Below are positions 890 through 1,242 of a stretch of 1,242 nucleotides of DNA, in pieces. The translations under genes and the position numbers were made by a program. Position 1 is the first letter of the stretch; each line of letters starts with the position of its first letter. The notes under the pieces are model-generated. The model saw only the letters and a list, made by a program, of their open reading frames with translations, did not search any database and was not told where the DNA came from. Source of the stretch: Escherichia coli (GTDB taxonomy: Bacteria; Pseudomonadota; Gammaproteobacteria; Enterobacterales; Enterobacteriaceae); NCBI RefSeq assembly GCF_003334385.1, contig NZ_QOWN01000120.1; one strand, given 5' to 3'.

Positions 890-896
890 CCTCCTT
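890..896 (-). promoter_or_regulatory. Strong Shine-Dalgarno-like AAGGAGG downstream of the capsid stop
   Basis: Minus-strand TGAgtcTGATAAGGAGG: a perfect 7-nt SD core, but about 30 nt upstream of the small-ORF ATG at 859 in linear sequence, with the hairpin in between. Confidence 0.35.
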
Positions 897-903
897 ATCA
901 GAC

Positions 904-1242
904 TCAGCTGCCGGACGCACTGCCGTAGTTCACTCCGGTGATCACCGCCACCGCCGCGGTACGGCGACGACGCCAGTTGATCCAGCGCTCCGCACGGATG
1001 GCCACGCTGCCTGTCTGGAACATGGAAACCAGCTCCACCGGCGACGGCGTGGTACTGTCGCCGGTCGGCTCAGACTGCATTTCCAGTGATGCCTCGCGGG
1101 ACATATCCACTGCCACGCCGCCGTCATCCGCCAGATAAATATCCGGGGCATTCACCAGCACCAGCTGGTCACCCACGTACTGGGAGACAATCACCGGCAG
1201 CCCCTGGAAGGAGCCACCCAGCAGGGTCATGTCCGGGTATTC
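904..1242 (-). CDS. Major capsid protein, HK97 fold (Pfam Phage_capsid PF05065-like); C-terminal 112 codons, 5' end beyond window right edge
   Basis: Minus-strand frame is open from the window edge (EYPD precedes the internal Met at 1230 that the ORF track used as start) to TGA at 906..904: EYPDMTLLGGSFQGLPVIVSQYVGDQLVLVNAPDIYLADDGGVAVDMSREASLEMQSEPTGDSTTPSPVELVSMFQTGSVAIRAERWINWRRRRTAAVAVITGVNYGSASGS. The pattern GLPV(V/I)..VGD...D..GV.V..SRE...F...VAIRAE.R....R.AAV matches my recollection of the conserved C-terminal region of HK97-type capsid proteins (LWG-PVV...VGDF...DREG..VEVS.E...F..N.VAIRAEERLAL.V.RP.AF). G/C-rich third positions. Family call is by motif memory, not search. Confidence 0.65.
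   Translation of the reverse strand, partial: EYPDMTLLGGSFQGLPVIVSQYVGDQLVLVNAPDIYLADDGGVAVDMSREASLEMQSEPTGDSTTPSPVELVSMFQTGSVAIRAERWINWRRRRTAAVAVITGVNYGSASGS

What the first reader, a model, noticed from the sequence alone, without database searches (positions are those of the whole stretch)
895..906. Three in-frame stop codons within four codons at the capsid gene end
The capsid frame ends ...GGC AGC TGA GTC TGA TAA: TGA, one sense codon, TGA, TAA, all in the capsid frame. TGA is the leakiest stop in enterobacteria, so backup stops prevent C-terminal extension of the capsid subunit, which would plausibly disturb shell assembly. This may be coincidence, since the TAA is also part of the downstream SD context.
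Basis: seen in the sequence. Interest (0 to 1): 0.2.

Follow-up and report, generated by a model that had tools for sequence, protein, structure and literature searches.

The report
Triple stop ending a phage capsid gene
A Shiga-toxin-phage capsid gene ends with three in-frame stop codons within four codons; the pattern is real and fixed in this E. coli phage lineage but absent from its nearest relatives, so it is at most a weakly selected safety net against read-through.

Summary
On the minus strand, 906-895 reads TGA GTC TGA TAA in the frame of a protease-scaffold-capsid fusion gene of BP-4795/2851-type Stx lambdoid phages.

All 99 IMG/VR contigs of this clade, and the most divergent E. coli copies, keep at least two of the three stops. 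The third stop alternates TAA/TGA. One contig has lost the first stop and would end at the second.

The pattern does not extend beyond the clade. Enterobacterial homologues end in a single TAA, or in TGA with no backup, and none of about 230 other homologous capsid genes has two extra stops. In BP-4795, one gene in 77 shows the pattern, the same rate as out-of-frame control windows.

Across the family, TGA-terminated capsid genes carry one in-frame stop at +1..+3 in 29% of clusters. Out-of-frame windows give 5-13%, and TAA-terminated genes give 6%. This is suggestive support for the fail-safe idea, against published bacterial genome-wide evidence.

Mechanically, the backups would cap any UGA read-through at +2 residues instead of +87. 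Such a run would cross the next gene and the portal start.

The third stop abuts a conserved GGAGG-hairpin-8 nt-AUG arrangement, which resembles the T4 gene 25/38 split ribosome-binding site. Overall this is ordinary and of low interest.

The parts
907..1242 (-). 3' end (last 112 codons) of the 645-aa prohead-protease/scaffold/HK97-type major capsid fusion gene; it runs off the window
   Evidence: PF05065 in homologues.
904..906 (-). Primary stop TGA, followed by G (UGAG). It sits at the same position as the stop of the enterobacterial homologues.
   Evidence: It is invariant in 98 of 99 clade contigs and is CGA in one.
901..903 (-). Sense codon GTC between the first and second stops
   Evidence: It is invariant in the clade.
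898..900 (-). Second in-frame stop TGA, followed by T (UGAU, the preferred +4 context). This is the effective backup.
   Evidence: +4T follows 59 of 82 TGA stops in the family.
895..897 (-). Third in-frame stop TAA. It is polymorphic TAA/TGA in the clade and directly abuts the Shine-Dalgarno GGAGG.
   Evidence: (64 TAA, 34 TGA, plus the single CGA-variant contig, which has TAA).
890..894 (-). Shine-Dalgarno core GGAGG. It is invariant in the clade and present just 5' of the hairpin in enterobacterial relatives (weakened to GGAT in L089).
868..889 (-). Hairpin ACGGGAGGC-GUGC-GCCUCCCGU: 9 bp with a 4-nt loop and no U tract
   Evidence: 97% of cells are paired; one pair switches A-U/G-C; slid controls give 42-54% pairing. 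It is not terminator-like.
860..867 (-). 8-nt spacer (AACAGGTT) between the hairpin and the AUG, with no SD-like motif
638..859 (-). 73-aa gene (BP-4795 ORF57) of unknown function. Its N-terminus, M-x-x-I/V-R/K-Y-L, is conserved across genera.
   Evidence: PHROG 829, E=3.7e-39.
1..692 (-). 5' part of the portal gene. Its ATG at 692-690 overlaps the end of the 73-aa gene by 55 nt in another frame.
643..645 (-). Next stop in the capsid frame after the triple block. It marks the end of the 87-residue extension that read-through would produce if the two backups were absent.

Best explanation
The capsid gene terminates at the first TGA. The other two stops lie in the 9-nt spacer (GTCTGATAA) between that stop and the Shine-Dalgarno sequence of the next gene.

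Whatever their origin, they must act as fail-safe terminators. A ribosome that misreads UGA (normally as Trp) adds two residues and stops at the UGA-U. Otherwise it would translate 87 more codons through the SD, the hairpin, nearly all of the 73-aa gene and the portal start.

The +2 TGA is probably maintained by weak selection of the kind seen family-wide in UGA-terminated capsid genes. The third stop is most likely a by-product of the purine-rich sequence flanking the SD.

Shown: the sequence, the frame, retention in the clade, absence in outgroups, and the family-level enrichment. Inferred: that read-through occurs at a relevant rate, that an extended subunit or invading ribosomes are harmful, and that selection keeps the backup.
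For: - Frame and stops.
- Extension of 87 residues without the backups.
- Clade retention: 99 of 99 IMG/VR contigs keep at least two stops. The only common polymorphism converts one stop into another (TAA/TGA). One contig lacks the first stop and would end at the second. The triple stop is also present in copies only 90.5-95% identical.
- The TGA primary stop is shared with L163 and L165, which lack backups, so the backups arose after the gene already ended in TGA.
- Family-wide (229 gene ends, 185 clusters at 90% identity): 22 of 76 TGA-terminated clusters have an in-frame stop at +1..+3, against 10 and 4 of 76 in the two other frames (p=2e-4). TAA-terminated clusters have 6 of 100 (p=5e-5). 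The result is stable at the 80% and 70% clustering levels.
- Neighbouring TGA-terminated ORFs have 21 of 129 (p=0.035).
- TGA is described as the leakiest stop, and a weak TGA-specific +1/+2 effect is reported, in PMC6764699.
Against: - The nearest homologues lack backups, and no other homologue has two.
- Within BP-4795 the frequency of such a pattern equals that of out-of-frame controls.
- The block is not significantly more conserved than synonymous sites (p=0.06), and the intervening sense codon GTC is equally invariant.
- Two of the three possible transitions in TAA keep a stop, so the TAA/TGA polymorphism is weak evidence.
- The systematic study of 644 bacterial genomes found a paucity, not an excess, of additional stops. 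It found no effect of expression level and attributed the +1 effect to a +4T preference (PMC6764699).
- My family test is not phylogenetically corrected.
- No measurement of read-through or of the effect of an extension exists here.
Confidence: 0.5

Rival explanations
1. Pure coincidence with no fitness consequence. The spacer between the capsid stop and the SD happens to contain CTGA and TAA in frame. The clade is young, so the pattern is simply inherited.
For: - One such gene per 77, the same as out-of-frame controls.
- Outgroups lack the pattern.
- In L163 the homologous spacer TGCGCTGACAGGGAGG carries the same CTGA out of frame, because of a 2-nt length difference, and has CAG where the window has TAA.
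- GTC is as invariant as the stops, and conservation is not significant.
- The general bacterial evidence is against selection for additional stops.
Against: - The family-level excess of in-frame stops after TGA is absent in the other frames and after TAA, and is weaker in neighbouring genes.
- The pattern persists through copies that differ by up to 9.5%.
Confidence: 0.36
2. The stops act as a ribosome barrier for the next gene. They ensure that no ribosome from the heavily translated capsid gene enters and melts the hairpin that bridges the SD and the AUG of the 73-aa gene, or occludes the portal start. This would preserve the low, fixed expression of the downstream genes.
For: - The SD-hairpin-AUG architecture is conserved directly after the stops.
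- The read-through frame would cross the SD, the hairpin, the 73-aa gene and the portal start.
- The gene order places the capsid gene upstream of the portal gene.
Against: - Relatives with the same SD-hairpin-AUG architecture manage with a single stop.
- There are no expression data.
- This is a refinement of the fail-safe idea rather than an independent mechanism.
Confidence: 0.1
3. Programmed recoding. The UGA is read through, or bypassed, on purpose to make a minor extended capsid species, as in Qbeta A1 or T7 10B.
For: The primary stop is UGA in a non-optimal +4G context.
Against: - The read-through frame closes after one codon, with two further stops, so no extension domain can be made.
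- There is no Rfam match.
Confidence: 0.02

Closest known systems
Fail-safe tandem / additional stop codons (ASCs), as described in yeasts (PMC1088959) and ciliates (PMC6879139), and tested in bacteria (Major et al. 2002, cited in PMC6764699; Ho & Hurst 2019, PMC6764699)
   Same: In-frame stops lie within three codons of a leaky primary stop in a highly expressed gene. They would terminate read-through products.
   Different: There are two extra stops rather than one. The pattern is lineage-specific and absent from the nearest homologues. In bacteria the phenomenon is reported as not selected genome-wide. The backups here are at +2 and +3, not at +1, where the +4U effect operates.
Qbeta coat/A1 UGA read-through (from my own knowledge)
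   Same: A capsid gene that ends in UGA.
   Different: It is the opposite logic. In Qbeta a long open frame follows the UGA and the extension is functional. Here the frame closes after one codon.
Split ribosome-binding sites of T4 genes 25 and 38 (Nivinskas et al. 1999 and Malys & Nivinskas 2009, as reviewed in PMC3014915). This concerns the adjacent element, not the stops.
   Same: The SD is too far from the AUG in linear sequence (30 nt here; 27 and 22 nt in T4). An intervening stable hairpin brings them to a working distance (8 nt here; 11 and 5 nt in T4). The arrangement is conserved among related phages.
   Different: The phages and genes are unrelated. The element sits directly after a capsid gene's stop codons. 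In some relatives the hairpin is followed by a U-rich tract and may double as a terminator. It has not been tested experimentally.
Stable hairpins or intrinsic terminators directly after phage major capsid genes
   Same: A GC-rich tetraloop hairpin follows the capsid stop within a few nucleotides in most homologues examined.
   Different: In the window there is no U tract and no terminator call. Lambdoid late transcription is Q-antiterminated (from my own knowledge).

Membership tests
Fail-safe additional stop codons | At least one in-frame stop within a few codons 3' of the primary stop | tested here: met
   TGA GTC TGA TAA in the capsid frame.
Fail-safe additional stop codons | The primary stop is a leaky one in a weak context | tested here: inconclusive
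   The stop is UGA followed by G, whereas 72% of family UGA stops are followed by T. The actual read-through rate was not measured.
Fail-safe additional stop codons | Backup stops conserved or enriched beyond chance among homologues | tested here: inconclusive
   They are kept in the whole E. coli clade but absent in the nearest outgroups. A family-wide TGA-specific excess exists without phylogenetic correction. Within-genome frequency equals the control.
Fail-safe additional stop codons | Read-through product terminated at the backup, with a cost when the backup is removed | not testable with these tools
   This needs mass spectrometry of virions and mutant phages. One natural variant (CGA GTC TGA TAA) would end at the second stop.
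Programmed stop-codon read-through (Qbeta A1 type) | A long open frame after the leaky stop that encodes an extension | tested here: not met
   The frame closes after one codon.
Split ribosome-binding site (T4 gene 25/38 type), for the adjacent element | SD separated from the AUG by more than about 15 nt, with no SD near the AUG | tested here: met
   There are 30 nt between GGAGG and the ATG. The 8-nt spacer has no SD-like motif. The same holds in 14 relatives by inspection.
Split ribosome-binding site (T4 gene 25/38 type), for the adjacent element | A stable intervening hairpin that reduces the effective spacing to about 5-11 nt, conserved among relatives | tested here: met
   The hairpin is 9 bp, and the region folds at -15 to -24 kcal/mol in every variant. 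Effective spacing is 7-11 nt. Within the clade, 97% of cells are paired and one pair is compensatory. Stem tops and loops differ across genera. I could not obtain a clean cross-genus covariation test.
Split ribosome-binding site (T4 gene 25/38 type), for the adjacent element | Hairpin-destabilising mutations lower translation initiation | not testable with these tools
   This requires reporter fusions or toeprinting.
Intrinsic terminator | GC-rich hairpin followed by a U tract | tested here: not met
   There is no terminator-like site in the window. The hairpin is followed by GUAACAGGUU. Some relatives have U-rich tails, and L087 and L095 have canonical terminators.

The most novel reading that the evidence does not exclude
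UGA-terminated HK97-type capsid genes, the most heavily translated phage genes, are a gene class in which fail-safe in-frame stops are positively selected. This would be an exception to the published conclusion that bacteria and their phages do not use additional stop codons. The E. coli Stx-phage triple stop would be its extreme case, protecting both the capsid subunit and the structured ribosome-binding site of the next gene.
Probability: 0.3. Interest if true: 0.4.

Novelty: new member of a known kind. Interest (0 to 1): 0.2.

Why it matters
If the backups are selected, phage capsid genes would be a concrete and experimentally tractable case of error-proofing against UGA read-through in the bacterial world, where genome-wide surveys found none. 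It would also tell annotators and phage engineers that the few bases after a capsid stop are not free to change.

If the backups are incidental, the finding is a normal consequence of having about 80 gene ends per phage genome.

Tried and rejected
- Rfam scan of the window gave only a sub-threshold sroE hit on the opposite strand (17.8 bits against a gathering score of 51, E=0.44). I treated it as chance.
- The promoter/terminator scan found nothing.
- Folding the 86 nt around the stops is not more stable than shuffles overall (z=-0.8). Only the local hairpin is notable.
- A 4-codon mini-ORF starts at GTG 880, nine nt after the SD. I rejected it because the GTG is absent from many clade variants.
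- Gene-truncation origin (Ho & Hurst's alternative, in which an old stop remains downstream of a new one) is not supported. The first TGA is at the same position as the stop of the relatives. L163 differs by a 9-nt insertion upstream, not by a later stop.
- MAFFT alignments across genera (A2 and A5) put the 3' arms out of register. The covariance-model alignment mixed in antisense and spurious hits. I therefore report no formal cross-genus covariation count.
- My first gene-end pipeline mis-called L156, and the second mis-called L111 (both diagnosed). I repeated the statistics with a motif-anchored call of the C-terminus and got the same result.
- The gapped pattern search found no length variants of the spacer in IMG/VR.

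Full report
**What is in the window.** The coding strand is the minus strand. The window holds three things. The first is the last 112 codons of a 645-aa gene annotated as phage major capsid protein or 'major head protein/prohead protease'. The second is a 73-aa gene. The third is the first 230 codons of the portal gene. The sequence belongs to the BP-4795/2851/YYZ-2008 group of Stx-converting lambdoid phages. It occurs in 1244 of 5426 complete E. coli genomes, in up to seven copies, at 90-99% identity. The gene order is small terminase, large terminase, protease-capsid fusion, 73-aa gene, portal.

**The observation.** The reverse complement of 895-906 is TGA GTC TGA TAA, and all three stops are in the capsid frame.

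**Is it more than chance?** I used all 77 annotated genes within the first 50 kb of BP-4795.
- The per-codon frequency of in-frame stops at +1..+6 is 4.1%, so two or more stops in the next three codons are expected at about 0.5% of gene ends.
- One gene, this one, shows the pattern. Nine genes have one extra stop.
- The two out-of-frame control windows give the pattern 2 times in 154.
- The pattern is uncommon per gene, but about one case per phage genome is expected.

**Conservation inside the clade.** Among 99 IMG/VR contigs, 64 read TGA GTC TGA TAA, 34 read TGA GTC TGA TGA and one reads CGA GTC TGA TAA. The most divergent E. coli copies (90.5-95% identity) read TGA GTC TGA TGA. Every copy therefore keeps at least two stops, and the only common polymorphism converts one stop into another.

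This is weak evidence, for three reasons:
- Two of the three possible transitions in TAA give another stop.
- The sense codon GTC is just as invariant as the stops.
- The block has 2 variable sites in 12, against 21 in 50 third-codon positions nearby, which gives p=0.06.

**Conservation outside the clade.** I collected 80 loci from one genome per species, three intermediate relatives and 160 more viral contigs seeded from distant subfamilies.
- The enterobacterial homologues (75-88% protein identity) end at the same residue position with a single TAA. One has TAA TAA. L163 and L165 end in TGA with no backup.
- In L163 the homologous spacer carries the same CTGA out of frame, because of a 2-nt length difference.
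- None of the roughly 230 other gene ends has two extra stops.

**A family-level signal.** After a motif-anchored definition of the C-terminus and clustering at 90% identity, the counts of clusters with a stop at +1..+3 are:

| Primary stop | In frame | Other two frames |
|---|---|---|
| TGA (76 clusters) | 22 (29%) | 10 and 4 |
| TAA (100 clusters) | 6 | 24 and 10 |

- The excess after TGA peaks at +2 and persists at 80% and 70% clustering.
- Long neighbouring ORFs in the same loci that end in TGA have 21 of 129 in frame, against 17 and 13 in the other frames. Capsid versus neighbours gives p=0.035.
- This is what the fail-safe hypothesis predicts for a very highly expressed gene with the leakiest stop.
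- It runs against Ho & Hurst (PMC6764699), who found a paucity of additional stops in 644 bacterial genomes. They found no expression effect and only a TGA-specific excess at +1, attributed to a +4T preference, plus an uncorrected +2 signal in highly expressed genes.
- My test is not phylogenetically corrected, so it is suggestive only.

**Mechanism.** Whatever their origin, the backups must work as terminators.
- A ribosome that reads through the first UGA (context UGA-G) adds two residues and meets UGA-U, the preferred context in this family (59 of 82).
- Without the two backups, the next in-frame stop is at 645-643. That would give an 87-residue extension translated across the SD, the hairpin, nearly all of the 73-aa gene and the portal start at 692.
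- The second backup adds almost nothing to the first. It is best seen as a by-product of the sequence next to the SD.

**The surroundings.**
- The TAA abuts GGAGG (894-890). A 9-bp hairpin follows immediately (889-868, loop GUGC), then 8 nt with no SD-like motif, then the ATG of the 73-aa gene at 859.
- In 14 enterobacterial relatives the same order holds: stop, 0-11 nt, GGAG(G) (GGAT in L089), a 6-9-bp GC hairpin, 7-10 nt, ATG. The stem tops and loops differ (GAAA, GAGA, GCGA, GGUAA and others).
- Within the clade, 97% of cells pair. The base pair switches between A-U and G-C, and slid controls pair at 42-54%.
- Two relatives (L087, L095) instead have a canonical terminator followed by an ordinary SD.
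- The linear SD-AUG distance of 30 nt shrinks to 8 nt once the hairpin forms. This matches the split ribosome-binding sites of T4 genes 25 and 38 (27 to 11 nt, and 22 to 5 nt; PMC3014915).
- This explains why GGAGG is fixed next to the third stop. It also shows that the extended 'TAAGGAGG' is not required, because a third of the clade has TGAGGAGG.

**Verdict.** The feature is real. It is a known kind of thing, tandem in-frame stops after a leaky UGA. It is fixed in one young phage lineage and absent in its nearest relatives. There is only suggestive family-level evidence that one backup stop is favoured after UGA in capsid genes. Interest is low.

Noticed in passing
window 857-894 (minus strand): A GGAGG SD is followed directly by a 9-bp hairpin, then an 8-nt spacer and the ATG of the 73-aa gene. 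The linear SD-AUG distance of 30 nt falls to 8 nt when the hairpin forms. The arrangement is conserved in enterobacterial relatives with different stems and loops and resembles the T4 gene 25/38 split ribosome-binding site.
   Followed up: partly
window 638-692 (minus strand): The 73-aa gene (PHROG 829, unknown function) overlaps the portal start codon (692-690) by 55 nt in a different frame. The gene order terminase, capsid, small gene, portal is unusual, because it puts the most abundant protein upstream of a 12-copy protein.
   Followed up: partly
L001 7904-7918 (outside the window; BP-4795 ORF58/ORF59 junction): PGAP calls the portal gene 'frameshifted' in all five E. coli genomes I inspected, and it is annotated as two 'portal' ORFs in BP-4795. 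The junction is CTG AAA AAA TGA with the next ATG overlapping (ATGA), so the second ORF is in the -1 frame. PHROG 2271 (859 positions) spans both ORFs. This could be a conserved -1 slip on the A run, or simply two coupled genes.
   Followed up: partly
L026 = L237 (IMGVR_UViG_3300029846_000259), capsid stop region: This single metagenomic contig has CGA in place of the first TGA. The capsid protein would gain Arg-Val and end at the second stop. A sequencing error is not excluded.
   Followed up: no
family loci L083-L165 and L269-L428, the first 12 nt after the capsid stop: TAA-terminated homologues show the opposite pattern to TGA-terminated ones. In-frame stops are depleted (6 of 100) while the +1 frame is rich in stops (24 of 100), for example TAAnTAA and TAAnTGA. 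I have no explanation.
   Followed up: partly
L087 and L095 (Serratia, Rouxiella), after the capsid stop: These relatives replace the SD-hairpin-AUG arrangement with a canonical hairpin plus T-run terminator, followed by an ordinary SD 8-10 nt before the ATG. In several other relatives the hairpin is followed by a U-rich spacer, so the hairpin may derive from, or double as, a terminator.
   Followed up: no
clade alignment, first 153 nt of the 73-aa gene (window about 707-859): 63% of sites vary among 58 haplotypes, equally at all codon positions, which is far more than in the capsid 3' end (17%). This may reflect divergent alleles, recombination or unnoticed indels. I did not resolve it.
   Followed up: no
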